Position numbers and translations under genes: made by a program. Source: a virus. Taken from it: a stretch of DNA of 23,479 nucleotides. Location: positions 1 to 23,479 of IMG/VR virus record IMGVR_UViG_3300002038_000006; one strand, 5' to 3'. The notes beneath the pieces are model-generated. The model was not told where the DNA came from, did not search any database, and saw only the letters and a program-made list of their open reading frames with translations. Every line of letters begins with the position of its first letter. Positions within the stretch are counted from its first letter, which is position 1. Positions 1 to 12,418 of this stretch are shown here, piece after piece.

Positions 1-1020
1 AAATCAACTACTACTACCTATGGCACTAGTAGAACTACTAGTAAGAGCACGAGTACGGGCTGGACTACTAGCTATAATACTTCATTTAATACTAGTAAGA
101 CTACTACTACTACTTACGGTACTAGTAGAGTTACCGGCTTCAACACTAGTAAAACAACTACAACCGGCTACGTGACTAACTATGGTACTTCATTTAATAC
201 TAGCAAGTCTACGACTACTACATTTAGTACTAGTAGAAGTACTAGCTTTAGTACTTATAAGTCAACTACTACTAGCTACACTACTAGTTATACCACATCA
301 CGCGGTACTAGTAGGTCTACTACAACTACGTGGAATACCAGTAGAGGTACTGCATGGAATACAAATAGGGGCACCACCACTACCTACGGTACAAGTTGGA
401 CCACTGGTCATTCGACTAGTAAGTCTACTACAACTACGTGGAATACCAGTGGAAGTACTACATGGAACACTAGTAAAAGTACAACTACTAGCTACACTAC
501 TAGTTATACTACTAATCGTACTACTAGTAAGTCCACAAATACTTCATGGTTAACGGTACATGTAACCATTGCCTCTACTAGTAAATCAACTACTACTACC
601 TATGGCACTAGTAGAGGCACTAGTAGAGGCACTACAACTAACTGGACTACTCAAAGGGCTACGTCCTTTAATACGGTAGCGACTGTATTGACCGAGTATA
701 ACACATCTAGAAATACTAGTAAGTCTACGACTACTAGCTATAATACTAGTAGAAGTACTACCTATGGCACTAGCAAGTCCACGACTACTACTTACAGTAC
801 CGGTTGGAATACTAATAAGTCTACTACGACAACTTGGGGCACTGATATAACAACCTCATTTAATACTAGTAAAACCACTACTACTGTATTTAATACTAAC
901 GTATCAACTAGTAAATCAACGACTACTTCATGGACTACTAGTTATTTAACTGACACAGTTACTAGTAAAACCACTACTACTGTATTTAATACTAGTAGAA
1001 CTACTAGTAAGAGCACAGTG
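1..1020 (+). repeat. DNA-level imperfect repeats within fibre 1 (ACTAGT-rich)
   Basis: Exact duplications: 33 bp at 1-33 and 583-615; 28 bp at 315-342 and 423-450; 34 bp at 865-898 and 961-994. Confidence 0.85.
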
Positions 1021-2010
1021 ACTGAATGGTTATCTGGTAGAACCACTAATTATAATACCACCTTCGGTACATTAACTAGTTATACTACGTCCAGAACTAC
1101 CAGTACTGCGTTTGTTACTATACGTGAAACTGACCGCACTACCAGCCAGTCTACTACGACTAACTGGACTGTGTCTTCTACTACTAGTGTAGCGATGACT
1201 ACTCAGACTAACACAGTTTGGGGAACTCAACGTTCTACTGATGAAGGCCGAAGTGCAACGACCACCACTGCTTGGACTACGTCTTACAGCACAGATGTAC
1301 AAACAACTGCTTCTACAACTACAAACTGGATGACAGACTTCCAGCGTGTTACTGATGTTGATGCAGGTAAGACTACAACTACACATTGGTCTACGTCGAA
1401 AGCTACGCAAACTGATTTTGCAACTGCATACTCGACTAACGTCAATACTGTAAGGTTCACTCAGTCTAACTGGACTACTTTTACGAATACAATCAAAGAA
1501 GTTGGTGAGTTGGTTACGTCTAAGAGTACCGTTTGGGATACAACCCGTGAGACGAATAGTTCATTCACTACTTCAGGTGGACAAGCTGTTCTAACCGATA
1601 CTAGCTGGCAGACTGCTAAGTCTACGTTGACTGTATGGTCAACAAGTACAGTTGGTTCAGGTGGCACAACGTTGAATACTGATACGTTACGTAGCACTAC
1701 AACATCTTGGTCTACAACTGTTCAGACAACTACTACTGTTGCTGGCGACCGTCAGACTACGACTGCGTGGACTACAACGTTCTCTACTACAGCGGACATT
1801 ACGTACACTACCAATGCGGAATACATTACTCAGTGGAGTACTGCAAGACAGACAGATGTGTTGAACGCAACATCAATCTTGACGTCTACTTCTTGGAACA
1901 CAACTGATTACTACGGTGCAGAACGTACTACAAGTCAAGTGGATACAACCGCTTGGATTACTGGTACTGAACATCAAACTCAGTGGGTTACAAGTCGTAC
2001 TACTTCTTAA
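1..2010 (+). CDS. Thr/Ser-rich repetitive fibre-like protein 1 (5'-partial)
   Basis: The frame is open from base 1 (KSTTTTYGTSRTTSKSTSTGWTT...) to TAA at 2008-2010, so the GTG at 172 is not the true start. Repeats are T-S-[KR]-S-T-T-T-x-[WYF]-x-T, the same architecture as the anchored fibre at 3873. Confidence 0.8.
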   Translation, partial: KSTTTTYGTSRTTSKSTSTGWTTSYNTSFNTSKTTTTTYGTSRVTGFNTSKTTTTGYVTNYGTSFNTSKSTTTTFSTSRSTSFSTYKSTTTSYTTSYTTSRGTSRSTTTTWNTSRGTAWNTNRGTTTTYGTSWTTGHSTSKSTTTTWNTSGSTTWNTSKSTTTSYTTSYTTNRTTSKSTNTSWLTVHVTIASTSKSTTTTYGTSRGTSRGTTTNWTTQRATSFNTVATVLTEYNTSRNTSKSTTTSYNTSRSTTYGTSKSTTTTYSTGWNTNKSTTTTWGTDITTSFNTSKTTTTVFNTNVSTSKSTTTSWTTSYLTDTVTSKTTTTVFNTSRTTSKSTVTEWLSGRTTNYNTTFGTLTSYTTSRTTSTAFVTIRETDRTTSQSTTTNWTVSSTTSVAMTTQTNTVWGTQRSTDEGRSATTTTAWTTSYSTDVQTTASTTTNWMTDFQRVTDVDAGKTTTTHWSTSKATQTDFATAYSTNVNTVRFTQSNWTTFTNTIKEVGELVTSKSTVWDTTRETNSSFTTSGGQAVLTDTSWQTAKSTLTVWSTSTVGSGGTTLNTDTLRSTTTSWSTTVQTTTTVAGDRQTTTAWTTTFSTTADITYTTNAEYITQWSTARQTDVLNATSILTSTSWNTTDYYGAERTTSQVDTTAWITGTEHQTQWVTSRTTS

Positions 2011-2019
2011 TCTAAATAA

Positions 2020-2041
2020 GGGACTGGGGAAACTCAGTCCC
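2020..2041 (+). terminator. GAAA-loop hairpin with weak U-tail (attenuator or stabiliser)
   Basis: GGGACTGGG-GAAA-CTCAGTCCC just after the fibre 1 stop, followed only by ATGTT on the + strand. Confidence 0.55.
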
Positions 2042-2060
2042 ATGTTAAAGGATAGTTAAA

Positions 2061-2828
2061 TTGAATACTACAACAAGTAACCGTTACAATACCTTTGCTG
2101 CCATATGTGATGAGAGAAACGTTGAACTCATCGCTGACCATAAAAGCAATACTGGTATTAGTCGTAAAAGTAACGCGTTAATAATCGGGGAACTATTGGG
2201 GGGTATTATATTACTTCCTCAGTTATTAGGACTTCGACTGAAGAACTTGAATGCTGCACTTAACGATAATAGCCATGGCAATTCTATTGGCGAGTTAATA
2301 CCTGAAGCAGACCTTCCGGATAATGGAATGAAGTTGATGGTTATGCCTGAACTACTTGTCTTGGAGATTACACCTAAGTGTTGTAATCAAATCGTTGATT
2401 GGGCTGATGGTGAACCTTGTTTAGTTATACCCAAGGATGATACTCCACCAGAGTTGATTCAGGCGTTACACGCCACTGGGGACAACTTCACTATCCTACC
2501 AGTTGATTCTGATAAATCGGATTTACTACGTAGGTCCAAAGAAGTATTGTGCAGTACAGTCGATGGGTTAGCCATAGAAGCCATATGGTACAACAAACCT
2601 CTCTCCTTTATGATAGAAGGCAGGTCCCACGACGTAGGCCCGTTTAGACTGCTAAACATTCTCTTGTCCAATGATTGCGAGAATCGACATAAGCGTCTTA
2701 ACAATTTTCTGAACTCAGAGTTTGGTGGCTTCTTCTTACCCGGTAAGCAAGGACTTACTGAACTCCGAACATTCCTAGCGAAACACGAGGATAATCATGA
2801 AAGATTTACCAACCCACATCGCTCTTAA
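2061..2828 (+). CDS. Hypothetical protein, degenerate GT-B / KpsS-KpsC-like (capsule synthesis-like) domain
   Basis: AAGGA RBS and TTG start. DLLRRSKEVLCSTVDGLAIEAIWYNKPL resembles the GT-B C-terminal motif (LL..sd.v.t..S...iEA...gKPv). The usual upstream HP motif is not present. Overlaps the rSAM start by 32 nt. Confidence 0.5.
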   Translation: MNTTTSNRYNTFAAICDERNVELIADHKSNTGISRKSNALIIGELLGGIILLPQLLGLRLKNLNAALNDNSHGNSIGELIPEADLPDNGMKLMVMPELLVLEITPKCCNQIVDWADGEPCLVIPKDDTPPELIQALHATGDNFTILPVDSDKSDLLRRSKEVLCSTVDGLAIEAIWYNKPLSFMIEGRSHDVGPFRLLNILLSNDCENRHKRLNNFLNSEFGGFFLPGKQGLTELRTFLAKHEDNHERFTNPHRS

Positions 2829-3759
2829 CATGACCAGTGCCTGTAACATGGATTGCTCATATTGCTACATGGATAAATTAAATTCCGGTAAGCGTATGTC
2901 AAACCAAGTTCTTGACGGCGTCATTGAGATGATTAACAAAACCGATGACGGCCAACGATTCCAAGTTAGCTTCTTCGGCGGTGAACCTACTCTTGCTAGT
3001 CGTAGCATTGGGTACTTTATCGATAACGCAAACCTTGACAAAATCGAAGGTTTCTCATTAACTACTAACGGCACAAACATTGATGTTGTAAACCATGTTG
3101 CAAGACGTGGCTTTGAAATGACCAATGGTCGTATTATGACTAGGGTACTTGTATCTAACAAAGATGTACGTGCCCCTGCTGAAGAGCTTGACCTTGAAGT
3201 AGTTGCAAACTCTTACCGTTACATCGTTGGTGTCGATACCATTGATGAAGTTGACGAAGCATTAGTTACCGAACTTCTTGAAAGTGAATTCATTCAAGTT
3301 GACTTCCGTTTTGACTACTACGCCAACTGGGAAGAAGTTGACCAGACTAAGGTGAACCGTGTTATTGAAATGTTACGTACATTCCAGAATACAACCAACC
3401 GCCTTAAGTTCCAACCACCTAAGATACTTGAAGCTATGGTGCAGAAGAAATGTCCTGCTCCACACATGAGCATCGACACTGACGGCGGTATCATGCCTTG
3501 TCACCGTATGTTCAACAGTACTCGTGGTATCGGTATGTCTGTAGGTAATATCCTAGAAGATATGGATAGTGCGGTTGCTCAGTTAGCGAAGTTCCATTCC
3601 GAAGTTCACTTCAGTACTGGCTGTGTAGGCTTCACTGAAAACTTTGGTCAGGACAGCGACATTCACGTTCTTAACCTTGGTACTCTGAACTATGAAGACA
3701 AGAGTAGTAAGATGACAGAAGGCGTGCTACAAGCCGCTGGTGAAATGAGTTGTCGTTAA
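2797..3759 (+). CDS. Radical SAM protein with C-terminal twitch/SPASM-like region (anSME/peptide maturase-like)
   Basis: CNMDCSYC (CxxxCxxC), FFGGEP, TTNG, and C-terminal KCPAPHMSIDTDGGIMPCH (C...DG.i.PC). GAGGA RBS. Confidence 0.92.
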   Translation: MKDLPTHIALNMTSACNMDCSYCYMDKLNSGKRMSNQVLDGVIEMINKTDDGQRFQVSFFGGEPTLASRSIGYFIDNANLDKIEGFSLTTNGTNIDVVNHVARRGFEMTNGRIMTRVLVSNKDVRAPAEELDLEVVANSYRYIVGVDTIDEVDEALVTELLESEFIQVDFRFDYYANWEEVDQTKVNRVIEMLRTFQNTTNRLKFQPPKILEAMVQKKCPAPHMSIDTDGGIMPCHRMFNSTRGIGMSVGNILEDMDSAVAQLAKFHSEVHFSTGCVGFTENFGQDSDIHVLNLGTLNYEDKSSKMTEGVLQAAGEMSCR

Positions 3760-3790
3760 TTAGGTAATTCAAAAAATTACATTTATAGGA

Positions 3791-3814
3791 GGAGGGCGAG
3801 AGCTCTCCCCTTTT
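3791..3814 (+). terminator. Intrinsic terminator
   Basis: GGAGGGC-GAGA-GCTCTCC stem-loop followed by CCTTTT, downstream of the rSAM gene. Confidence 0.75.
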
Positions 3815-3872
3815 ATATGACCGGACGCGGTTAAATAGAAGATTCTAGAATGTTTTATAAGGATTAATCCCT

Positions 3873-6800
3873 ATGTCAATCGAACCTATTATTAAATATC
3901 CGTTCGATAGTACAGCTGAGTCACCGACGAATTATTTCCAAAATGAGAGTCACGTGATTGAGCCGGATGGGCAAAAGACAATAGTGGTAAGGGCAGGTCC
4001 CTTCTACAGCGATAAGCTTATTGTTCACACCCCATCGTCTATCGAACCTCTTGTACGTGGTGATGATTACCATGTAAAGTATCTTTTCGAAGATGCGACA
4101 TTGAAGACAGGTAAAGAAGTTCACATAGCCATTTCAATGGTTGACCCTAACTGGCACGGAGAGTTATTAATCTCTGGTCAAGTTGTGGGTGGTGACTACT
4201 CTCACCTGTATCCGACGGTTGTAGATATAGTAAATGAGATTCGCAAGAATTACGAAACAGTAAGTTATCATGACCTTGAAGACTTACCTACCGCTTTCCC
4301 ACCTGTAAGCCATCCACATGACGTCAATGACTTGACTAACATGGATGAATTGATTGCTGCTATTAAAGAGAACAGTCAAAGCTTAGCTGGTACGTTGTTG
4401 TTTAACCAACGACCTTTGGAACGCATCGTAGCCCAAGCAGTTTCACGTACTGACCGTTTACAACGTCAGCCATTTGAAGGTTCTACCTACGTTGGCAGAC
4501 ACACTGGTCCCCTGACATTTATAATGCCGGGTACGCAAACTCACAATTCTAACTTTGTTGCTCGCATCCAAGTTCAGAACCATGAAAGCTTTGAAGTCTT
4601 AACTGTCTCTGGTCAAGAGAACATCGAGTTAATCGAAAAGGTTAAGGTACATGGCGATTCGGATTACGATGTAGATATATATCGCGATAAGAACATGCGT
4701 ATCTGTGTCTCGATGGGTGACGACGCTACCGAGTGGATAGATGCTACTGTTGCAATCGACAGTATTATGTGGAGTGTAGATGACCCCGTATATCGTGAAG
4801 TTCCTTTACGTTGGTCACATCTATCGATAGACACGTTGAAAACACGTGAACCTACCCACATGGAAAAAATTCTTGTTGTTGGTGCACAGACCAAGAATAA
4901 GATGTATGGATATAGTGATGGTATTTTACCTAACTTCCCAGTAGTAGCGCAAGTTATGTCTCTTGATGAGCCTACTGAAGAAGAAACTCGTCTAAGAGAA
5001 ATCGAAGCGGGACTAAGCTTACTTGAACCAGCATCTTTTGGTACACTAACAAGACCTGAAATTGAAGGTGCAGCAATCCGTCAATGGGTTAGCTTAACTG
5101 ACGATAGCGGTACTAATACGATACTTCGTGTTGCGACTATTCCTGAGGGGATGATTGATGACATGGATAACTCAATGCGTTGGGTACTTCGTGTTAATGA
5201 CCTAGACGGTTATGTCTACAGTGAGCCGGGTACTATTTTATCCGATGGTTCTGTAGCATGGCGTTTTGCAGGTTCTGAATTAGCTGATTGGCATTACTGG
5301 GAATTCGGTAGAGCGATACAAGAACGTCTTGAGTTGGCTAAAGTTCCAATGCACGCACTTGACAGTATCACTAAACCTGAAGAGCTTGACCCGTACATTC
5401 ACAATGTTGTTCCTACGTGGGGCACTATTTGGGATACGGACTACGGTACTACTTACTCTACCACTGAGTACGAGAAAGAGAATACTGCATGGCTTACACA
5501 CTCAGGTCCTGAAGCTACAACTCAGCGCAGCACTAATTGGTCTACTAGTTTACTTACGAGTAAAACTACTACCATTGCGGGTGATGGAGATTACCAGACT
5601 CTGTGGACAACCACTAAGTCAACCTCTACTACCTACAACACTGGTTACAATACCAACACTTCTCGTAGTACTTCTAAGTCTACGTCAACTACTTGGTCTA
5701 CCGGTACTGGTAAAACAACCAATCGTAATACGTCGAAGTCAACGACTACGGCATGGACAACCTCTTACTCGACTACCAAGTCGCGTAATACAAATGCTGG
5801 AACACAAACCAATTGGACCACTTCTAAGTCTACCACTAAGTCGCATACCACAACGGTTAGCACAGGTGGAACTAAGACAACTAGTAAGAGTACAACGACT
5901 AGTTACGGAACCAACTATGGTACTAACTTCAATACGAGTTACAGTACCAGTAAGTCAACGACAACTGTCTTCGGAACAAGTAAGTCTACAACCACTACCT
6001 ACAATACTGGTTATGGTTCAAACTACACTACTAGTTACAATACAAGTCGTTCGACAAGCACAGGTTGGACAACGTCGCACGCGACTACCAAGTCAACTAC
6101 GACAAGCTATCAAGCATCTCGTAATACTACGTACAGTAAGTCAACCACTAAAGTTGCGTCTCGTAGTACCAGTACCAGTTACAACACTAGCTGGAGTACT
6201 TCTCATAGTACATCTATTGGTACATCTAAGACGACTACAACCACATGGTCTACTTCGCATTCTAAGTCTACTACTAAGTCAACTACGAAACCTCGCAGTA
6301 CTTCAGTTAATACGACTAAGTCTACAAGTAAGACAACCAGTTGGACAACCAGTTATTTAACTGTAATTGGTAGTGCTTTCGTACCACTACCCGTTCTACT
6401 AGTGGTACAACTACTTGGAACTACACTGGTTCTACTAACCGTAATACCTCTTACTCTGCGAACACCACCTATAATACTTCTTGGAATGCAAATACCAATA
6501 GAAGTACAACTACGGGATGGACAAGTAATTACAACACGAGTTACAACACTAGTAAGGCCACTTCTAGGTCTACCACTACATCGTGGAATTACAGTGCAAC
6601 TACTTCTTGGGATGTCAGTACTAGTTACGCGGCTTCTAAGAATACGACAACGGGTTATAACACTAGTTATGACACAGCACGTTCAACTACTACTAGCTGG
6701 ACAACCAACCACACAACTAGTGGTGGTGTTACCAAGTCTACGTCGCATAGTACAAACACTGGGTGGAATACTAGTAAAGCTACAAGTACTGTTTGGAACA

Positions 6801-7169
6801 CGTCACGCACAACCAGTAAAGCTACATCGCACACTACAAGTAAATCTACAACTACTAGTTTCAATACTGGCATTACAGGTAATACTTCTTGGACGACTAG
6901 CTACAGTGCTAACACAAGTTACACAACTGGCAAATCAACCACGACAACATGGGCGACTAACTACTCAGGTTCTACGTCACGAGGCACGAACAAGTCTACT
7001 AATACTGCATGGTCAACTAGTTACCAAACTGGTATTACCAAGAATACTAGTAGAAATACAACTACAACGTATACAACTACGTTTAGTACTGTTACTGCTG
7101 TGGCAACTAGTAAGAACACAAACACTGCTTACCAAACATCTCGTACGACAACAGGCTTCAGTAATGTAA
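3873..7169 (+). CDS. Virion fibre protein 2, N-terminal part: phiKZ gp131-family-like anchor domain, middle domain, then Thr/Ser repeats (authentic frame ends ~6379)
   Basis: N-terminal motifs YPFD.T...N....E.H, GPFY, L.RG.DY, GK.V, VGGDY and P..FPP..HPH are typical of phiKZ-like tail/fibre proteins. T/S repeats begin at ~5410. After 6380 this frame becomes an out-of-frame Leu/Val-rich read-through. Confidence 0.8.
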   Translation: MSIEPIIKYPFDSTAESPTNYFQNESHVIEPDGQKTIVVRAGPFYSDKLIVHTPSSIEPLVRGDDYHVKYLFEDATLKTGKEVHIAISMVDPNWHGELLISGQVVGGDYSHLYPTVVDIVNEIRKNYETVSYHDLEDLPTAFPPVSHPHDVNDLTNMDELIAAIKENSQSLAGTLLFNQRPLERIVAQAVSRTDRLQRQPFEGSTYVGRHTGPLTFIMPGTQTHNSNFVARIQVQNHESFEVLTVSGQENIELIEKVKVHGDSDYDVDIYRDKNMRICVSMGDDATEWIDATVAIDSIMWSVDDPVYREVPLRWSHLSIDTLKTREPTHMEKILVVGAQTKNKMYGYSDGILPNFPVVAQVMSLDEPTEEETRLREIEAGLSLLEPASFGTLTRPEIEGAAIRQWVSLTDDSGTNTILRVATIPEGMIDDMDNSMRWVLRVNDLDGYVYSEPGTILSDGSVAWRFAGSELADWHYWEFGRAIQERLELAKVPMHALDSITKPEELDPYIHNVVPTWGTIWDTDYGTTYSTTEYEKENTAWLTHSGPEATTQRSTNWSTSLLTSKTTTIAGDGDYQTLWTTTKSTSTTYNTGYNTNTSRSTSKSTSTTWSTGTGKTTNRNTSKSTTTAWTTSYSTTKSRNTNAGTQTNWTTSKSTTKSHTTTVSTGGTKTTSKSTTTSYGTNYGTNFNTSYSTSKSTTTVFGTSKSTTTTYNTGYGSNYTTSYNTSRSTSTGWTTSHATTKSTTTSYQASRNTTYSKSTTKVASRSTSTSYNTSWSTSHSTSIGTSKTTTTTWSTSHSKSTTKSTTKPRSTSVNTTKSTSKTTSWTTSYLTVIGSAFVPLPVLLVVQLLGTTLVLLTVIPLTLRTPPIILLGMQIPIEVQLRDGQVITTRVTTLVRPLLGLPLHRGITVQLLLGMSVLVTRLLRIRQRVITLVMTQHVQLLLAGQPTTQLVVVLPSLRRIVQTLGGILVKLQVLFGTRHAQPVKLHRTLQVNLQLLVSILALQVILLGRLATVLTQVTQLANQPRQHGRLTTQVLRHEARTSLLILHGQLVTKLVLPRILVEIQLQRIQLRLVLLLLWQLVRTQTLLTKHLVRQQASVM

Positions 7170-8368
7170 GCGTCGACAGATTGACGGAACAAGTAACGTC
7201 TGTGGCTACTACTGGTGAGAAATTGACTACATGGTCAACGACTCGTAGTACAAGCGGTGAAAGAGTTGCACAAACTACTACAAGCTGGTCTACGGACTAT
7301 GTGGATGGTACGTCTTGGACAACATCTCGCATTACTAATGTTGGGACAAGTAGAACAACTAACACAACTGTTGACACTTCAGCAACTACCACACTTACTA
7401 CCGATAGTACTTTCGAGACTTCTTGGGAAACAAATGTGGATACAAGTATTTCAACATCAGCTACTACGACAACCTCGTGGAACACTGTACGTGAAACATC
7501 TTGGTTAACTGCTAAGACTACAGTGACTGTATTCTCTACAGTGGTTGAAGGTGTAACTAGAGAGACCATAACTTCTTGGACTTCTGACTTCACTACTTCA
7601 CACAGCACAAGTATTAATACAAGTGCTACAACCACAACAACTTGGACTACTAATGGCGGTGCTACTCGTACGACAACGGCGGATACAACAACAAGTGGTT
7701 CAGTAACAACGACAACGACATGGGCAACTAACGTGTCTACACAGACTCAATGGTCTACTGCGGCGAATACTAGCTGGACAACCGGCATGAATACAACGCA
7801 TACTAAGACTACCTCTGGGTCTACAGCTACTAGCTGGACAAGTTCGCATGTTACTAGTTTCAATACAAGTGTACTTACTGACATTCAATGGCAGACTAAC
7901 AAACATACTCGTTGGAACACTTCAATTACTACTACAGTACAAACAGGTGCTACTATTACTACTAAGTGGGAAACTCAGGCTTCTACAGCTGGACAAACAC
8001 TTATGGCATTACGTAACACTACTACGGCAAATGTTACTAACGTATCTACGTCTTGGACTACCCAAGCTACTACGTCACATAACACTTCTCGTGGTACAAC
8101 AGTAAGTTGGCAAACAGCTGACGCTAATGACCCTACCGCTACGGTAACGACAAGCGCAGATGTGAGCACTTCTTGGTCTGAAGAGTCCGAGGTTTCTGTT
8201 ACTACAAGTAGTTCGTACATGACGGCTGTTGAGCAAGAGTTCTTAACGGAGCACACGCAAGACACCGATTGGTACACCAACATTAATACTGATGTTCTTA
8301 CTACTAAGACATCGTCTGTATTGACAGCGGTTACTACATCTCGTGATACGAGTTGGCAAGGCACTTAA
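6374..8368 (+). CDS. Virion fibre protein 2, C-terminal Thr/Ser-rich part (-1 frame continuation; joined product ~1498 aa)
   Basis: The frame of ORF 7100..8368 is stop-free back to TAG at 6371-6373 and reads RTTTRSTSGTTTWNYTGSTNRNTSY..., continuing the repeats seamlessly. Confidence 0.8.
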   Translation, partial: CFRTTTRSTSGTTTWNYTGSTNRNTSYSANTTYNTSWNANTNRSTTTGWTSNYNTSYNTSKATSRSTTTSWNYSATTSWDVSTSYAASKNTTTGYNTSYDTARSTTTSWTTNHTTSGGVTKSTSHSTNTGWNTSKATSTVWNTSRTTSKATSHTTSKSTTTSFNTGITGNTSWTTSYSANTSYTTGKSTTTTWATNYSGSTSRGTNKSTNTAWSTSYQTGITKNTSRNTTTTYTTTFSTVTAVATSKNTNTAYQTSRTTTGFSNVSVDRLTEQVTSVATTGEKLTTWSTTRSTSGERVAQTTTSWSTDYVDGTSWTTSRITNVGTSRTTNTTVDTSATTTLTTDSTFETSWETNVDTSISTSATTTTSWNTVRETSWLTAKTTVTVFSTVVEGVTRETITSWTSDFTTSHSTSINTSATTTTTWTTNGGATRTTTADTTTSGSVTTTTTWATNVSTQTQWSTAANTSWTTGMNTTHTKTTSGSTATSWTSSHVTSFNTSVLTDIQWQTNKHTRWNTSITTTVQTGATITTKWETQASTAGQTLMALRNTTTANVTNVSTSWTTQATTSHNTSRGTTVSWQTADANDPTATVTTSADVSTSWSEESEVSVTTSSSYMTAVEQEFLTEHTQDTDWYTNINTDVLTTKTSSVLTAVTTSRDTSWQGT

Positions 8369-8386
8369 TTGTTAACGGCATAATCT

Positions 8387-8417
8387 AGGGGGGGCTTCGG
8401 CTCTCCCTTTATTTTTT
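8387..8417 (+). terminator. Intrinsic terminator
   Basis: AGGGGGGGC-TTCG-GCTCTCCCT followed by TTATTTTTT. Confidence 0.9.
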
Positions 8418-8448
8418 CTTTAGGTATGATAACTAAGAGGAAGATACA

Positions 8449-9036
8449 ATGAAAACTAGAAATCAAATCATTGAAGACACTGTCCGTCTGAAAGAGAAAG
8501 GCTATGCTAATCTCAAGAACGATAGTGGGGGTGAAACAATGTGGGGTATCACTACTGGTATTGCTGAGAAGTATAAGAACCTATGGGATAAATATGGGTT
8601 CACTGGCGATATGAAATCTATGCCTCTAGCTTTGGCGTATGAGATATATGCAATTGCTTATTGGGATGAGATGTATCTTGATGAGATATTGAAGATATCA
8701 CCTATGTTAGCTGAAGAGATATTCGACACTGGAGTTAACTGTGGACCTAAGAACCCACAGGAGTGGCTACAACGCTGTCTGAACGTCTTAAATAAACAGG
8801 GGTCTCATTATTCGGATATTGTAGTTGATGGCGACACAGGGCCTGCTACGGTCTCTGCGCTGCAAGGACTGTACAACAAACGCGGTACTGAGGGAATGAT
8901 GGTATTATTTTCAATGCTTAACGGTTTCCAAAGCGTATACTACGTTGAAATAGCTGAAAATAAAGAGACCTTGGAAGATTTCGAGTACGGCTGGCAAAGA
9001 AGTAGGGTGTTCCAGAACTTAGCTGGTAATTTATAA
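8449..9036 (+). CDS. Endolysin, glycoside hydrolase family 108 with C-terminal peptidoglycan-binding domain
   Basis: EKGY...ND.GGET.WGIT catalytic motif, FDTGVNCG, and LQRCLN...VDG.TGP.T. GAGGA RBS. Confidence 0.92.
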   Translation: MKTRNQIIEDTVRLKEKGYANLKNDSGGETMWGITTGIAEKYKNLWDKYGFTGDMKSMPLALAYEIYAIAYWDEMYLDEILKISPMLAEEIFDTGVNCGPKNPQEWLQRCLNVLNKQGSHYSDIVVDGDTGPATVSALQGLYNKRGTEGMMVLFSMLNGFQSVYYVEIAENKETLEDFEYGWQRSRVFQNLAGNL

Positions 9037-9040
9037 AGAC

Positions 9041-9075
9041 AAAAAAATAAAGGAGGGCACTAAGCCCTCCGTTAT
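9041..9075. terminator. Bidirectional terminator between convergent genes
   Basis: GGAGGGC-ACTAA-GCCCTCC with an A-tract on the left (U-tail for the - strand). Confidence 0.85.
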
Positions 9076-9081
9076 GTCCGC

Positions 9082-9696
9082 CTACTGTTCTGCGTAACCT
9101 TTAGCCCTACCGTTTTCAATGATGTACAATTCCTTCATTACTAGGATGTACACATATCTACTAAGGACAAGACATGCAGTTGTTAAGGCTACCCCGATTA
9201 TGGTAGGTACACTATAGAGAACCATTAATCCACCGATACCACCTAAGGTTACAGCACTTAAAGCATTTATCCTACCCCGCAGTAAAGAGAACTCACCACA
9301 GGATTTAATGACCTGAGAGTTGTTCTTATCACGCAAAGGTGTAATAACTGATTTAGTTGCCATCATTAACCCAAGGCTAGCCAATAATATCGTATCAGGA
9401 TAGATGTCCCATTCGGTTAACCAGAAACCTAGGATACACAATATCTCTATTGCTACAATCCAAGTATAGGAACGAACGGGATTCTTAATCACGTATCTAC
9501 TTAACCCCGGTAACAGAACAGCTAACCCCAATACAGGAGTCATCCAATCTTTTATCGCCAGTCCTTTCTCCCCAAAGGTAGAGGAGAGAAGACCAACGGT
9601 TATTGAGATTAAGAATACGTAAGTAGACTTCGATAGAAATTCGTAAGTAAGGTAATACTTCCTTAACTTACTTAGCTGTCGCAAGCTCGTTATCAT
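9082..9696 (-). CDS. Multi-pass membrane protein, unknown function
   Basis: 204 aa with about 5-6 hydrophobic segments. GAGG RBS. Confidence 0.8.
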   Translation of the reverse strand: MITSLRQLSKLRKYYLTYEFLSKSTYVFLISITVGLLSSTFGEKGLAIKDWMTPVLGLAVLLPGLSRYVIKNPVRSYTWIVAIEILCILGFWLTEWDIYPDTILLASLGLMMATKSVITPLRDKNNSQVIKSCGEFSLLRGRINALSAVTLGGIGGLMVLYSVPTIIGVALTTACLVLSRYVYILVMKELYIIENGRAKGYAEQ

Positions 9697-10080
9697 CGGT
9701 TACCTCTTTCTTTTCTGACTCTAACTCTATCAGAAAATAATGGTAAACCCAACGCGACAAACTCATGAAACCAATAGCTAGAACTGTATTGACCATAATG
9801 TCTACTTTATAGACAGTCATCGCAACACCAACCGAAGTGACTATTACCAGTACGATGGAAGAGAATCTCTCAGCAAGTACTGACTAATCTTGGGTATGAA
9901 CAATAACAAACCAAAGATAGGAGTTGAATAGTCACGAATGATTATACCTAGACCATCGAAGTACTTAACGATGAGTATTACAGTAACGGCAACTAAGAAG
10001 ATGTTACAGGCATTCACTAGGAGTACGTATAACAGATGTAGTTTCCTTAACTTACTAAGGTTCTGTATTTGGTTCAACAT
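9668..10080 (-). pseudogene. Internally deleted, frameshifted paralog of the 9082-9696 membrane protein
   Basis: The N-part (LSKLRKLHLLY...IRDYSTPIFGL) aligns to the paralog N-terminus. A second frame (SVLAERFSSIVLVIVTSVGVAMTVY...LSRWVYHYFLIEL, TAA at 9668-9670) aligns to its C-terminus. About 60-70 middle residues are missing. Confidence 0.75.
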
Positions 10081-10717
10081 CTTCCACAGGCTCCTTTACT
10101 TCTTCTACCGGGGCAGGTGGAACTTCACGGCCGTACATAGCCAATACTTCTTTTAAATCATTAATGGTATCTTCACCACCATGTTTAAAGATGTGATGAA
10201 TTTGGGCATCACTGAACTGTAGAGCATACGCTTCAGTTTCCCAAGGTAAGTCACGCCATTGGTAAGGCATGCGTTCTGGGGTAGTAGTTTGGTCAATCAA
10301 TGATTGTGGGTACAAAGTACCTTTCCAAACCGTACCACCATCAACGAAGCGTAGGTCACCACGTTCGAATTGACCTAAGTGGATAGCTTCGTGAGTTAGT
10401 GTCACTTCAAGTAGATTCACATCTGTGTTGATTAGAATCCAAGGTTCACCACCAATGGTAGTGAAGAATGTAGATACATCAATGTCTACAACTGGACGTA
10501 GTTCACGACCAACGATTGCTTGATGATGGCGAGAAGACATGGCGCAAATCTTCACGTTACCCAAACGAAGCTTAGTAGCTTTCGATATGGCATGTTTCAT
10601 TTGACGTACGTAAGTCTGGTCATTACAGGCTTTAGCCATTTCACGACGTTGTTGCTTATTGTACATACTTAATGCTTCGCGGTTTTTCTTATCTTCGAAG
10701 AAGTTTTGAAAGTTCAT
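10055..10717 (-). CDS. Putative zinc metallopeptidase-like protein (HExxH)
   Basis: LTHEAIHLGQ...GDL plus downstream PWETEAY. Confidence 0.7.
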   Translation of the reverse strand: MNFQNFFEDKKNREALSMYNKQQRREMAKACNDQTYVRQMKHAISKATKLRLGNVKICAMSSRHHQAIVGRELRPVVDIDVSTFFTTIGGEPWILINTDVNLLEVTLTHEAIHLGQFERGDLRFVDGGTVWKGTLYPQSLIDQTTTPERMPYQWRDLPWETEAYALQFSDAQIHHIFKHGGEDTINDLKEVLAMYGREVPPAPVEEVKEPVEDVEPNTEP

Positions 10718-10725
10718 ACTGGGTC

Positions 10726-11025
10726 CTAGTTATAGTTATTTACTACGGTTGAATTGTTTGGGATGGTAACACCGTTCAATGCTGGGTAAGGACTCTCCAC
10801 TATAAGAGTACAGCTATCTGGGTATTTCCAATCGAGACTGGCGAAAGAGTTAATAACTCCATTCACTACCTGCTCTGGTAAATCATTTATGGTTACAGTA
10901 AATAAGTCAAAGTTATCTACCGATTGGTTTTTCTTAACGAACTTAATACCGTATTTAGTATTAATGTTAAGGACAGGCATTGCGTCACCTAACTTACAGG
11001 TTATGCCTAAATGGGTTGTACTCAT
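10726..11025 (-). CDS. Hypothetical protein
   Basis: 99 aa ORF with AGGGAAGAG RBS, tightly packed with its downstream neighbour. Confidence 0.75.
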   Translation of the reverse strand: MSTTHLGITCKLGDAMPVLNINTKYGIKFVKKNQSVDNFDLFTVTINDLPEQVVNGVINSFASLDWKYPDSCTLIVESPYPALNGVTIPNNSTVVNNYN

Positions 11026-11092
11026 GCTCTTCCCTTGGATTCGGCGGTCGCAATCAATTCAGAAAACAACACTGGTTTTAAATCCCAGTGGT

Positions 11093-11428
11093 CTATCGCT
11101 TTTTAGCATTAGTGATATATTTCCTTAAATCCCTAACGCCCTTAGCATGTAGTTTACTACACCTTTTGGGACTTAAGCCATAGTTATTTATGGCAGCGGA
11201 TAATCTAATCCAGTTATTTCCATCTAGGATATATTTAACCCTACCGCCTTCGACCCGCTCTCTGTCATAAGGGATTACTTCACAGTAGTGTTCAACTAAG
11301 TGATGCATCTTTATTTTCTTCTCACAACAGTGGTTACCGGGTATGTTAGTAATCTTAGCAACGTGATGGTTATCCACCAGTTCTTTCATTCTACCTAACC
11401 AGTAAGAGGTCATCGTCTCTTTATTCAA
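11093..11428 (-). CDS. Hypothetical protein (possibly the 3' part of a decayed gene starting at 11553)
   Basis: 111 aa ORF with a weak start. The frame continues upstream through a single TAG at 11483-11485. Confidence 0.55.
   Translation of the reverse strand: MNKETMTSYWLGRMKELVDNHHVAKITNIPGNHCCEKKIKMHHLVEHYCEVIPYDRERVEGGRVKYILDGNNWIRLSAAINNYGLSPKRCSKLHAKGVRDLRKYITNAKKR
11111..11122 (-). promoter_or_regulatory. Possible phiKZ-type early promoter (TATATCAC)
   Basis: AAATATATCACT on the - strand ~85 nt upstream of the 11025 gene. It resembles the phiKZ early consensus TATATTAC; a similar ATATATCATC lies at 21391-21400. Confidence 0.3.
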
Positions 11429-11616
11429 TAGTGCATGGTGATAAGCAACTAGTCCACCGCAGTATCTTCCACCGTTGATAAACTATCGAACATACCCTGC
11501 TAAATCATCATCTGGGCTACCAAATGTAAAGGCTCGTTCTTAACTATAATCATTTCGTAAATTCCTGCAACAGGTTCTATATTAAAAACGTCCTGTGTAA
11601 AAATAGTATAGACGGC

Positions 11617-11646
11617 AAAAAGAACTACTCCCACAAGGAGAGTAGT
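11617..11646 (-). terminator. Intrinsic terminator
   Basis: On the - strand ACTACTCTCC-TTGT-GGGAGTAGT followed by TCTTTTTGCCG. Confidence 0.75.
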
Positions 11647-11791
11647 CTAAAGGGGAATATACAATGAAACCTAATAAAAGGAAGTCAGCATCAAACACAT
11701 CACAAGTGAAGCTCGCCTTCTAACCAAAGTCTGGACCCGACTCCGTCTAATGGTTATAGTTCGAGAAAGTTATCTACTAACATATAATAGG

Positions 11792-12418
11792 TTATGGTTG
11801 ACTATTAAAACATAGCTCTTCTTGTTGACGAATAGATTCTACCATGTAGGTATCACCATCCCCTACCAACAACCTATTTCTCTCTTGTACCTCTTTAATT
11901 CTTTTTGCGCACCCATAATACTTAACAATTACTTGCTGAAGTTTATTTCCGTCCACATCGTCAAAGTAGGTAACTCCTTCTACCGTATCATCTTCAAAAA
12001 CTCCCTTTGAATGAAATTGCAGAGTCTGAAACTCTGTACTAAAATATACCGAGCCTAAAAATCGAGCAGGTATAGTTAACAAGGCTATTCGGAAACAACT
12101 TTCCAAAGAGGCAATCATTTTGTAAATATTATCGGGCCTTACGTTAGCTCTTGCCAGAACTGTCTGTAATCGTCTCACAATCCTATCAGGAACTAGTTCG
12201 TCATCTAACAGGGGAGTAAGTCGGGCAATCACATACTTGCAGAGAATGCGCATTAAGACAACGTTAACCTTCTCGTCATCGTAACACAAGCGTCCACGTA
12301 CATTGAATATAACCGTCTGACCTCGGTCGAACATTAGTTCCGATAATGGATTGTCTTCGCAATTTGCCCATTCATCTTCGAGAGGGTTAATCCCTCTTCG
12401 CTTACCGGGTACAATCAT
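11792..12418 (-). CDS. Hypothetical protein
   Basis: 208 aa ORF with GAGG RBS and no recognisable motif. Confidence 0.8.
   Translation of the reverse strand: MIVPGKRRGINPLEDEWANCEDNPLSELMFDRGQTVIFNVRGRLCYDDEKVNVVLMRILCKYVIARLTPLLDDELVPDRIVRRLQTVLARANVRPDNIYKMIASLESCFRIALLTIPARFLGSVYFSTEFQTLQFHSKGVFEDDTVEGVTYFDDVDGNKLQQVIVKYYGCAKRIKEVQERNRLLVGDGDTYMVESIRQQEELCFNSQP

What the first reader, a model, noticed from the sequence alone, without database searches (positions are those of the whole stretch)
1..2010. Near-invariant aromatic-x-Thr register resembling triceptide (cyclophane) substrate motifs
Seen: almost every W/Y/F (and several H) is followed by Thr two residues later (YGT, FNT, WNT, WTT, YST, WLT, WGT, WST, WQT, WDT, WIT, WVT). 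K/R occupy the same register in TS[KR]ST, often 6 residues before an aromatic. Fibre 2 largely follows the same pattern. Known: three-residue cyclophane-forming rSAM/SPASM enzymes link an aromatic residue to the C-beta of residue i+2. Inference: these are dozens of possible crosslink sites for the adjacent rSAM. Alternatives are a purely structural cation-pi ladder in a beta-ribbon, or a flat TxT ice/carbohydrate-binding face.
Basis: partly seen in the sequence, partly recalled or inferred. Interest (0 to 1): 0.75.

Follow-up and report, generated by a model that had tools for sequence, protein, structure and literature searches.

The report
Thr-rich fold-back phage fibre ladder
The aromatic-x-threonine pattern is real, but it comes from a very long phage tail fibre that folds back on itself so that aromatic residues face lysine or arginine; dozens of phages with no radical SAM enzyme have the same pattern, so it is not good evidence for enzyme-made crosslinks.

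Summary
In detail: 61 of 69 W/Y/F in window 1-2010 have Thr at +2, against 26 ± 4 after shuffling. The pattern is not specific to aromatics. K/R show it too (48/50), Thr sits equally often at -2, and relabelling the bulky residues gives the same count.

The real unit is a tetrad [aromatic or K/R]-x-T-x, interrupted by KSTTTT hexads. It keeps one period-2 register for about 1000 residues.

The window ORF is the returning arm of a fold-back hairpin. In one gap-free antiparallel register, aromatics face K/R 67 times (9 expected; unit-shuffled maximum 32) and Thr faces Thr. Orthologues, fibre 2 and unrelated phage fibres show the same.

Seventy-nine such fibres from other phages keep the register (85%) with no radical SAM gene within 8 kb. 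Two CheckV-complete genomes have no radical SAM gene at all. Their constant neighbour is a KpsC/WbbB-like Kdo transferase. P0002 in the window is a degenerate paralogue of that transferase without the HP motif, and the phage encodes KpsF and KpsU.

The 320-aa rSAM has one auxiliary cluster and fits no cyclophane synthase family. The cyclophane reading is therefore unsupported but not excluded.

This scan already reached the same reading on another genome (e1-5378797).

The parts
1..1617 (+). Returning (C-terminal) arm of the fibre 1 hairpin. Repeats are [Ar/KR]-x-T-S tetrads plus KSTTTT hexads, with an 18-aa (54-nt) super-repeat. The partner arm lies at the other contig end (genome 216,462-218,060).
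1..39 (+). 39 nt identical to the last 39 nt of the contig (KSTTTTYGTSRTT). It lies on the apparent hairpin tip, so it is probably a repeat-induced false terminal repeat, and the distal part of fibre 1 is probably unassembled.
1618..2010 (+). C-terminal tail of fibre 1 (129 aa plus stop) beyond the paired region. It is less regular and shows one parity shift.
2061..2828 (+). P0002, 255 aa. A degenerate paralogue of the phage's KpsC/WbbB-like transferase (P0023 family), with IPkDDTP where that family has KPHPIT. It overlaps the rSAM start by 32 nt.
2797..3759 (+). Radical SAM enzyme, 320 aa. It has CX3CX2C (C16, C20, C23) plus four conserved Cys (C219, C235, C276, C319), consistent with one auxiliary cluster (twitch-like). 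It has no N-terminal recognition domain.
3873..6380 (+). Fibre 2, first part. It has a phiKZ-type N-terminal virion/tail-fibre anchor domain (about 520 aa) followed by the outgoing hairpin arm.
6378..6382 (+). Frame change (0 to -1) at the hairpin tip of fibre 2. The window is 22 nt shorter here than L002 and L003, whose fibre 2 is one ORF.
6380..8368 (+). Fibre 2, second part. It holds the returning arm (about 260 aa, mirror-complementary to the first arm) and a 400-aa irregular Thr-rich tail.
8449..9036 (+). Endolysin (GH108 plus a peptidoglycan-binding domain). It marks the end of the fibre module.

Best explanation
The aromatic-x-Thr register is one strand's view of a structural checkerboard in a fold-back tail fibre.

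- **Anatomy (shown).** Fibres 1 and 2 of this marine phiKZ-like jumbo phage are built of tetrads [W/Y/F/H or K/R]-x-T-x and hexads K-S-T-T-T-T. Every second residue is either bulky or Thr.
- **Fold (inferred from sequence).** The chain runs out to a tip and returns antiparallel. Each aromatic then faces a K/R of the other arm, and each Thr faces a Thr. This gives a beta-ribbon several hundred residues long, with cation-pi rungs alternating with Thr-Thr rungs on one face and Ser/Thr/Asn/Gly on the other.
- **Family (shown).** This fibre type is widespread in phages. Its conserved partner is a KpsC/WbbB-like (beta-Kdo transferase-like) enzyme, not a radical SAM enzyme.
- **Function (inferred).** The hydroxyl-rich fibres are probably O-glycosylated with Kdo made by the phage's own KpsF and KpsU.
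- **The P0002/rSAM pair (inferred, chemistry unknown).** In this clade the transferase-like gene directly behind fibre 1 has lost its catalytic HP motif (P0002) and is translationally coupled to a small one-auxiliary-cluster rSAM. This pair is a lineage-specific addition that probably acts on the fibres or their glycan.
For: - **Period-2 register.** Bulky residues keep one parity from residue 20 to about 1018 of fibre 1. Spacings are nearly all even: 4 (113 times) and 6 (54 times). The DNA period is 54 nt.
- **Mirror complementarity in fibre 1.** In register i+j=1072, aromatics face K/R 67 times against 9.1 expected. The next best register gives 41. Five hundred unit-order shuffles give maxima averaging 23.8 and never above 32. 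Thr faces Thr 153 times, with no gaps over about 350 pairs.
- **Same result elsewhere.** Contiguous orthologues give 40 (L002; shuffle maximum 26) and 34 (L003; shuffle maximum 22). Fibre 2 of the window gives 42 against 23 for the next register, with the tip at the junction. The rSAM-less fibres L056 (64 against 23), L079 and L131 behave the same, and L056 and L079 have globular Cys-containing inserts at the symmetry centre.
- **Not aromatic-specific.** The relabelling control shows no excess for aromatics.
- **Register without rSAM.** Seventy-nine fibres have 5181/6080 aromatics followed by x-T and no A1-type rSAM within 8 kb. Two CheckV-100% genomes have no PF04055 hit.
- **Transferase link.** hhalign of the P0002 family against the P0023 family gives probability 97%, E 1.2e-10 over 228 columns. 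The AF2 model of P0023 (pLDDT 80.8) has WbbB, KpsC and KrkA as its top PDB hits.
- **Kdo supply.** KpsF-like (SIS+CBS) and KpsU-like (CTP_transf_3) genes are in the genome.
- **Conserved neighbour.** The transferase-like gene lies directly downstream of Thr-rich fibres in about 70 of 77 loci outside this clade.
Against: - There is no structural model of the fibre. The ESM Atlas model has pLDDT 0.39, and both of my AF2 jobs went to other proteins.
- Mirror complementarity would also fit an antiparallel dimer of two chains.
- Glycosylation is inferred only from gene neighbourhood and fold. The P0023 family shows the HP motif but no obvious QXXXD nucleophile motif.
- Fibre 1 of the window was joined across contig ends and is probably incomplete.
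- The rSAM's conserved place between the two fibres remains unexplained by a purely structural reading.
Confidence: 0.75

Rival explanations
1. One reading: the adjacent rSAM links each aromatic ring to C-beta of the Thr two residues later, giving triceptide-type three-residue cyclophanes at dozens to hundreds of sites along the fibres.
For: - There are over 100 Ω1-X2-X3-like motifs, matching the triceptide definition in PMC11499958.
- An rSAM of the SPASM/twitch lineage lies between the two fibre genes, and this position is conserved in L002 and L003.
- The rSAM family profile hits the triceptide synthase ChlB (9gm3) at 50.6 bits, close to its best hit anSME at 56 bits.
- i to i+2 aromatic-to-C-beta links are compatible with a beta-strand. 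Darobactin has such links (abstract of PMC9055067) and mimics a beta-strand (title of Kaur et al. 2021, seen in the reference list of PMC10476194).
Against: - The register is equally strong for K/R and for Thr at -2.
- It is as strong or stronger in 79 fibres without any nearby rSAM, and in two complete rSAM-free genomes.
- Scores against the cyclophane synthase models AmcB, YhhB and GrrM/OscB are 30-43 bits against cut-offs of 310-445, and only the N-terminal core aligns.
- Only four Cys follow the core and there is no CX2CX5CX3C.
- The best NCBIfam hit is PapB, a thioether former, yet fibre 1 has no Cys.
Confidence: 0.05
2. The rSAM, docked by the pseudo-transferase P0002, modifies the fibres or their glycan by some other chemistry. 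Candidates are cross-strand aromatic-Lys/Arg C-C staples, oxidation of Thr/Ser hydroxyls (anSME- or BtrN-like), epimerisation, or tailoring of an attached Kdo. This reading is compatible with the best explanation.
For: - P0002 and the rSAM overlap by 32 nt and have the same narrow distribution: 7 and 10 protein clusters, all from contigs of about 200-220 kb where contig length is known.
- The rSAM has no recognition domain of its own: CX3CX2C starts at residue 16.
- Distant phrog_1802-type rSAMs also follow tail or tail-fibre genes in unrelated phages: L005, L022 and Fusobacterium phage phiKSUM.
- The cross-strand pairs (Trp/Tyr/Phe with Lys/Arg) are the residue pairs joined by known rSAM crosslinkers such as WprB and darobactin synthase (abstracts).
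Against: - Synteny within one narrow clade is weak evidence.
- Known rSAM crosslinks join residues 2-4 positions apart in short peptides, not residues hundreds of positions apart.
- The ladder exists without the enzyme.
- Nothing in the sequence points to a particular chemistry.
Confidence: 0.35
3. The flat Thr arrays (T-x-T rows and Thr-Thr rungs) form an ice-binding or carbohydrate-binding face, and the aromatic and basic residues serve ligand binding, not fibre stability.
For: - Regular Thr-Thr rungs sit on a probably flat beta-ribbon.
- The phage is marine according to an earlier scan note.
Against: - The aromatic-K/R complementarity between arms is explained by intramolecular pairing and needs no ligand.
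- The conserved partner gene is a sugar transferase-like enzyme, which points to modification and not to ligand binding.
Confidence: 0.07
4. The repeats are a disordered mucin-like glycosylation stalk. The periodicity would then reflect only a transferase sequon such as aromatic-N-T-S, with no defined fold.
For: - Thr and Ser together are about 54% of the residues and Pro is absent.
- Asn follows the aromatic in 55% of motifs in rSAM-less fibres, giving N-x-S/T.
- ESMFold confidence is low.
Against: A sequon does not predict gap-free mirror complementarity of aromatic against K/R between two halves of the chain, nor tip inserts at the symmetry centre.
Confidence: 0.07

Closest known systems
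Needle domain of the T4 long tail fibre tip, gp37 (seven iron atoms bound by His along the needle, PMC6957217; the fold-back of each chain is from my own knowledge of Bartual et al. 2010 and was not re-read here)
   Same: It is a phage receptor-binding fibre. Its chain runs to a tip and returns, so outgoing and returning strands pair, and a period-2 motif (HxH there, bulky-x-T here) lines one face.
   Different: This fibre has no HxH or iron sites. The arms are several hundred residues long, against tens in gp37. Rungs are aromatic-cation and Thr-Thr pairs. Thr is 35-50% of the residues. The fibre is coupled to a Kdo-transferase-like gene. Its oligomeric state is unknown.
Triceptides and their three-residue cyclophane-forming rSAM/SPASM enzymes (XncB, OscB, YhhB, HaaB, HtkB, ChlB; PMC11499958)
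   Same: The substrate motif has the same form: an aromatic residue, any residue, then a residue with a C-beta hydrogen. An rSAM of the same broad lineage is encoded nearby.
   Different: Known substrates are short leader-bearing peptides. The enzyme here fails every cyclophane synthase model and has a single auxiliary cluster. The motif occurs just as often in phages without any rSAM.
Retaining beta-Kdo glycosyltransferases WbbB (GT99), KpsC (GT107) and KrkA (PMC10148158, PMC9587256)
   Same: The P0023 family model has these enzymes as its top PDB fold matches and carries a K-P-H-P motif. The genome encodes KpsF- and KpsU-like genes, the enzymes I take to supply CMP-Kdo. P0002 is homologous to P0023.
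   Different: Known enzymes act on glycolipid or O-antigen acceptors, whereas the presumed acceptor here is a protein. P0002 lacks the HP histidine. A QXXXD nucleophile motif is not evident. TM-scores are only 0.36-0.44.
Mycobacteriophage virion O-glycosylation (Freeman et al. 2023; known to me only through earlier scan notes that cite it via PMC12801897, paper not read here)
   Same: Phage-encoded transferases are thought to decorate Ser/Thr-rich parts of virion proteins.
   Different: The transferase family, the sugar (probably Kdo) and the acceptor architecture (an ordered hairpin ladder) all differ.

Membership tests
Triceptide (three-residue cyclophane) system | Ω1-X2-X3 motifs in the substrate (aromatic, any residue, crosslinked residue) | tested here: met
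   61/69 aromatics in the window ORF and 103/121 in joined fibre 1 are followed by x-T. The match is formal only: K/R-x-T is just as frequent.
Triceptide (three-residue cyclophane) system | The maturase belongs to a cyclophane-forming rSAM/SPASM family | tested here: not met
   NCBIfam scores are AmcB 42.6 bits (cut-off 425), YhhB 32.2 (445) and GrrM/OscB 30 (310). Only residues 5-100 align. The ChlB structure is hit at 50.6 bits, but anSME scores 56 and CteB 46 over the same core.
Triceptide (three-residue cyclophane) system | Full SPASM domain with two auxiliary clusters (seven-Cys motif including CX2CX5CX3C) | tested here: not met
   Only C219, C235, C276 and C319 are conserved after the core, and there is no CX2CX5CX3C. 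The motif definition is from my own knowledge (Grell et al. 2015).
Triceptide (three-residue cyclophane) system | The motif-bearing substrate co-occurs with the enzyme across genomes | tested here: not met
   Seventy-nine fibres with the register (85%) lack an rSAM within 8 kb. Two complete genomes have no PF04055 hit.
Triceptide (three-residue cyclophane) system | Loss of 2 Da per modified motif | not testable with these tools
   This needs mass spectrometry after anaerobic co-expression.
Twitch-type radical SAM enzymes | CX3CX2C cluster plus a shortened C-terminal domain binding one auxiliary cluster | tested here: met
   C16, C20 and C23 plus four invariant or near-invariant Cys in 10 homologues, including C-x15-C with G-x4-C. 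This rests on sequence only; no cluster was observed.
Retaining beta-Kdo glycosyltransferases (GT99/GT107), tested for P0002 | Modified GT-B-like fold shared with WbbB and KpsC | tested here: inconclusive
   P0002's own model is poor (pLDDT 47). Its homologue family P0023 (hhalign 97%) gives a pLDDT 80.8 model whose top 15 PDB hits are all WbbB, KpsC or KrkA, with E 8e-5 to 1e-3 and TM 0.36-0.44.
Retaining beta-Kdo glycosyltransferases (GT99/GT107), tested for P0002 | HP motif histidine that protonates the CMP leaving group (PMC10148158) | tested here: not met
   The P0002 family has v-I-P-k-e-D-T-P where the P0023 family and distant relatives have K-[PL]-H-P-[IL]-T.
Retaining beta-Kdo glycosyltransferases (GT99/GT107), tested for P0002 | Asp nucleophile in an invariant QXXXD motif (PMC10148158) | tested here: inconclusive
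   By eye the corresponding stretch is PG[TS]N in the P0023 family and LPE in P0002. Only one distant relative (P0045) reads QNMFD. No residue-level structural alignment was available.
Fold-back (hairpin) phage fibre, T4 gp37 needle type | Outgoing and returning halves of one chain pair antiparallel about a tip | tested here: met
   A unique mirror register shows aromatic-K/R complementarity far above unit-shuffled controls in fibre 1, fibre 2, orthologues and unrelated fibres. This is sequence inference, not a structure.
Fold-back (hairpin) phage fibre, T4 gp37 needle type | HxH iron-binding sites; trimer | tested here: not met
   His is 1.2% of residues and does not occur as HxH repeats. Oligomeric state cannot be tested here.

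The most novel reading that the evidence does not exclude
A catalytically dead Kdo-transferase-like adaptor (P0002) holds the hairpin fibre, or its glycan, for a minimal one-auxiliary-cluster radical SAM enzyme. That enzyme installs covalent changes along a virion fibre more than 1000 residues long. Candidates are aromatic-to-C-beta(Thr) cyclophanes, cross-strand aromatic-Lys/Arg staples, Thr oxidation, and epimerisation. As far as my literature searches show, this would be the first RiPP-type radical maturation of a phage structural protein.
Probability: 0.2. Interest if true: 0.85.

Novelty: new variant of a known kind. Interest (0 to 1): 0.55.

Why it matters
- The analysis replaces a chemically attractive reading (hundreds of cyclophane staples) with a testable structural one. 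A phage fibre family built as a register-perfect fold-back ribbon with aromatic-cation and Thr-Thr rungs is widespread in uncultured phages and tied to a Kdo-transferase-like enzyme.
- My literature searches found no description of such fibres, of their probable glycosylation, or of an rSAM in a tail-fibre module.
- The repeat grammar could guide fibre design and host-range studies in laboratory phages.
- The rSAM/pseudo-transferase pair remains a defined, small and expressible candidate for new protein or glycan chemistry.
- The result also warns that contigs can break, or close falsely, inside such repeats.

Tried and rejected
- **No close cultured relative.** Megablast of window 2000-12000 against cultured phages found nothing.
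- **Uninformative family scans.** Pfam, PHROGs and NCBIfam gave nothing useful for the fibres or P0002.
- **Structure prediction.** AF2 of P0002 failed (pLDDT 47). The ESM Atlas model of the window ORF is unusable (pLDDT 0.39).
- **No sequence-level link to known transferases.** PF05159 (Capsule_synth) is not found in the genome. PDB sequence searches with the P0002 and P0023 profiles gave nothing significant.
- **False Thr-rich ORFs.** The Thr-rich ORFs near distant rSAMs in L004, L006, L007 and L032 look like wrong-frame artefacts.
- **Uninformative fragment.** The related record G006 lacks the rSAM and P0002 but is only 54% complete.
- **No pairing between tails.** The unpaired C-terminal tails of fibres 1 and 2 show no mutual complementarity.
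- **rSAM classification.** The NCBIfam and PDB matches rest mainly on the shared N-terminal core and cannot place the enzyme among SPASM/twitch families, so I attempted no tree.
Full report
**Context**

The window is the first 23.5 kb of a 218,099-bp IMG/VR virus record. The N-terminal domain of fibre 2 matches virion and tail-fibre proteins of phiKZ-like jumbo phages. Earlier scan notes call the genome a marine nucleus-forming jumbo phage.

The region of the finding belongs to a same-strand module:
- fibre 1 (window 1-2010, 5'-open);
- P0002 (2061-2828);
- a radical SAM enzyme (2797-3759);
- fibre 2 (3873-8368, with one frame change);
- an endolysin (8449-9036).

The same order is kept in two related records of about 206-208 kb, L002 and L003.

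**The observation**

It holds. In the 669-codon ORF, 61 of 69 W/Y/F have Thr at +2, against 26.1 ± 3.8 (maximum 40) in composition shuffles. K/R do the same in 48 of 50 cases. The excess survives a stricter null that shuffles residues within the two parity classes (28.8 ± 3.8).

Two controls change its meaning:
- Thr is as frequent at -2 (62/69).
- Permuting the labels W/Y/F/H/K/R among the bulky positions gives 62.8 ± 1.6, against 61 observed.

Aromatics are therefore not special. The rule is a tetrad, bulky-x-T-x.

**Repeat grammar**

Joined through the contig ends, fibre 1 has 1202 residues. Cutting it before each bulky-x-T gives units of almost only even length: 4 residues 113 times and 6 residues 54 times. 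Bulky residues keep one parity from residue 20 to about 1018, with six isolated exceptions.

One face is Thr/R/W/K/Y/F. The other is Thr/Ser/Asn/Gly. Tandem Repeats Finder gives periods of 54 and 108 nt, which is an 18-residue super-repeat of three tetrads plus KSTTTT. Fibre 1 has no Cys and no Pro.

**The fold-back test**

An earlier scan note on another genome (e1-5378797) described such fibres as folding back on themselves, so I tested for mirror symmetry.

- **Fibre 1.** For every antiparallel register i+j=c, I counted aromatics facing K/R. One register, c=1072, gives 67 such pairs against 9.1 expected, and the next best gives 41. Laid out, the two halves match without a gap for about 350 pairs. 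Almost every bulky position is an aromatic facing K/R, or His facing an aromatic, and 153 positions are Thr facing Thr.
- **Control.** Shuffling the order of the repeat units 500 times gives maxima averaging 23.8 and never above 32.
- **Orthologues.** The contiguous fibres give 40 (L002; shuffle maximum 26) and 34 (L003; shuffle maximum 22).
- **Fibre 2 of the window.** Read with X at the frame change, it gives 42 against 23 for the next register, and the symmetry centre falls on the junction.
- **Fibres without rSAM.** L056 gives 64 (shuffle maximum 23), and L079 and L131 also show a single best register. In L056 and L079 the symmetry centre is occupied by an insert of about 60 residues with four Cys, as expected of a tip domain.

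I conclude that these proteins are fold-back antiparallel ribbons with alternating cation-pi and Thr-Thr rungs. This is inferred from sequence. An antiparallel two-chain arrangement would fit the numbers equally, but the tip inserts favour a hairpin.

**What travels with this fibre type**

The P0002 family is tiny. It has 7 clusters in one database and 3 close clusters among 1.84 billion representatives.

Its profile weakly hit another ORF of the genome, P0023 (genome 107,601-108,449). Profile-profile comparison confirmed homology over 228 columns: probability 97%, E 1.2e-10.

P0023 relatives carry an invariant K-P-H-P. Their AF2 model (pLDDT 80.8) finds the retaining beta-Kdo transferases WbbB, KpsC and KrkA as its top PDB matches, with E 8e-5 to 1e-3 and TM 0.36-0.44. 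KpsF-like and KpsU-like genes lie in the same fetched stretch, about 13-15 kb from P0023, and a GT8 gene follows it directly. P0002 has I-P-k-D-D-T-P where the HP motif should be. According to PMC10148158, that histidine protonates the CMP leaving group.

A scan of IMG/VR with the P0023 family found 254 relatives, and 80 loci were fetched. In about 70 of the 77 loci outside this clade, the transferase-like gene lies directly downstream of one or two ORFs with 35-51% Thr and the same KSTTTT[FWY]NTS style.

**The decisive comparison**

- None of these loci has a relative of the window's rSAM within 8 kb. One (L068) has an unrelated B12-binding rSAM.
- Across 79 non-redundant fibres from these loci, aromatic-x-T holds for 5181 of 6080 aromatics (85%) and K/R-x-T for 89%. 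In the rSAM clade the figures are 79% and 87%.
- Two records that CheckV rates 100% complete (70,850 and 68,415 bp) carry such fibres (71/79 and 60/64) and have no Radical_SAM domain anywhere.

The register therefore does not depend on, or co-vary with, a phage rSAM.

**The rSAM itself**

- It has 320 residues. CX3CX2C is at residues 16-23, so there is no N-terminal recognition domain. Four further conserved Cys (C219, C235, C276, C319) include C-x15-C with G-x4-C, and there is no CX2CX5CX3C. This fits one auxiliary cluster, twitch-like.
- Its best NCBIfam hit is the thioether former PapB, at 88 bits against a cut-off of 340. The cyclophane synthase models score 30-43 bits against cut-offs of 310-445.
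- Its profile hits anSME (56 bits), the triceptide synthase ChlB (50.6) and CteB (46) over the shared core only. It cannot be assigned to a chemistry.
- It is restricted to about ten proteins; the contigs of known length that carry them are about 200-220 kb, and its start overlaps the end of P0002 by 32 nt.
- Distant rSAMs of the same PHROG also follow tail or tail-fibre genes in unrelated phages: L005 (with three in tandem), L022 and Fusobacterium phage phiKSUM. This suggests, but does not show, a recurrent link with tail proteins.

**Verdict on the reading**

The triceptide definition is an aromatic-to-C-beta link on Ω1-X2-X3 (PMC11499958). It is met only formally by the substrate. The enzyme family, the SPASM domain and the co-occurrence criteria are not met.

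Crosslinking is not physically excluded, because the analogous i to i+2 links of darobactin accompany a beta-strand shape. I give it about 5%. The broader idea that P0002 and the rSAM modify the fibres or their glycan in some way gets about 35%.

**Assembly caveats**

- The 39-nt "terminal repeat" encodes KSTTTTYGTSRTT and falls on the apparent tip of fibre 1.
- Orthologues have a distinct tip (NYWTFWGEDWDGAGGSS in L002), which the window's fibre 1 lacks.
- A self-complementary 39-mer present in both arms would make an assembler join them symmetrically. The distal part of fibre 1 is therefore probably missing, and the terminal repeat is probably false.
- Fibre 2 changes frame at its tip and is 22 nt shorter there than L002 and L003. 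Whether this is an error, a recent deletion or recoding is open.

**Limits**

- There is no structural model of the fibre.
- Glycosylation rests on neighbourhood and fold similarity only.

Noticed in passing
window 6378-6382 (context 6310-6440): Fibre 2 shifts from frame 0 to frame -1 at its hairpin tip (GCT TTC | CGT). The window lacks 22 nt that L002 and L003 have here. The downstream arm is still intact and mirror-complementary, and the new frame has no start codon before 7100. This could be an assembly error, a recent deletion or -1 recoding on U UUC.
   Followed up: partly
window 1-39 and genome 218,061-218,099: The 39-nt terminal repeat lies inside the fibre repeat, on the apparent hairpin tip of fibre 1. 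The first 30 nt also recur at window 583. The contig probably ends in both arms of fibre 1, and the tip region is missing.
   Followed up: partly
L010:1460-3667 and L010:3989-5386: A 43-kb phage contig encodes a 735-aa protein with a long (G-C-T-x)n tetrad repeat. About 300 nt downstream lies an rSAM (PF04055 plus Fer4_12). This is another large tetrad-repeat phage protein beside an rSAM, here Cys-based.
   Followed up: partly
L005:6024-11143; L022:74-11128; L050 (Fusobacterium phage phiKSUM) 1-9641: phrog_1802-type rSAMs sit directly after tail-fibre or tail genes in unrelated phages. L005 has three rSAM genes in tandem behind a tail-fibre gene. phiKSUM has one between a protein of about 2030 aa and a long tail fibre gene.
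   Followed up: partly
L068:5465-6922: A B12-binding radical SAM enzyme lies 2.9 kb downstream of the Kdo-transferase-like gene. It is the only rSAM of any class found near the 77 fibre-plus-transferase loci outside this clade.
   Followed up: partly
L052-L131 fibres, e.g. L086:5659-7905 and L069:3675-7901: In rSAM-less fibres the residue after the aromatic is Asn in 55% of motifs (F/Y/W-N-T-S, an N-x-S/T sequon), against 20% in the rSAM clade. The rSAM clade instead has more Gly, Thr and Trp.
   Followed up: no
L056:5318-7903 (residues about 400-465) and L079:2799-7910 (residues about 830-900): Inserts of about 60 residues with four Cys and several Pro sit at the symmetry centre of otherwise Cys-free fibres. 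They are probably the receptor-binding tip domains.
   Followed up: no
genome 107,601-108,449 (L051:1102-1950) and relatives: The P0023 transferase-like family keeps K-P-H-P but shows PG[TS]N where KpsC has its QXXXD nucleophile motif. Only one distant relative (P0045) reads QNMFD. The catalytic mechanism may therefore differ from that of WbbB and KpsC.
   Followed up: no
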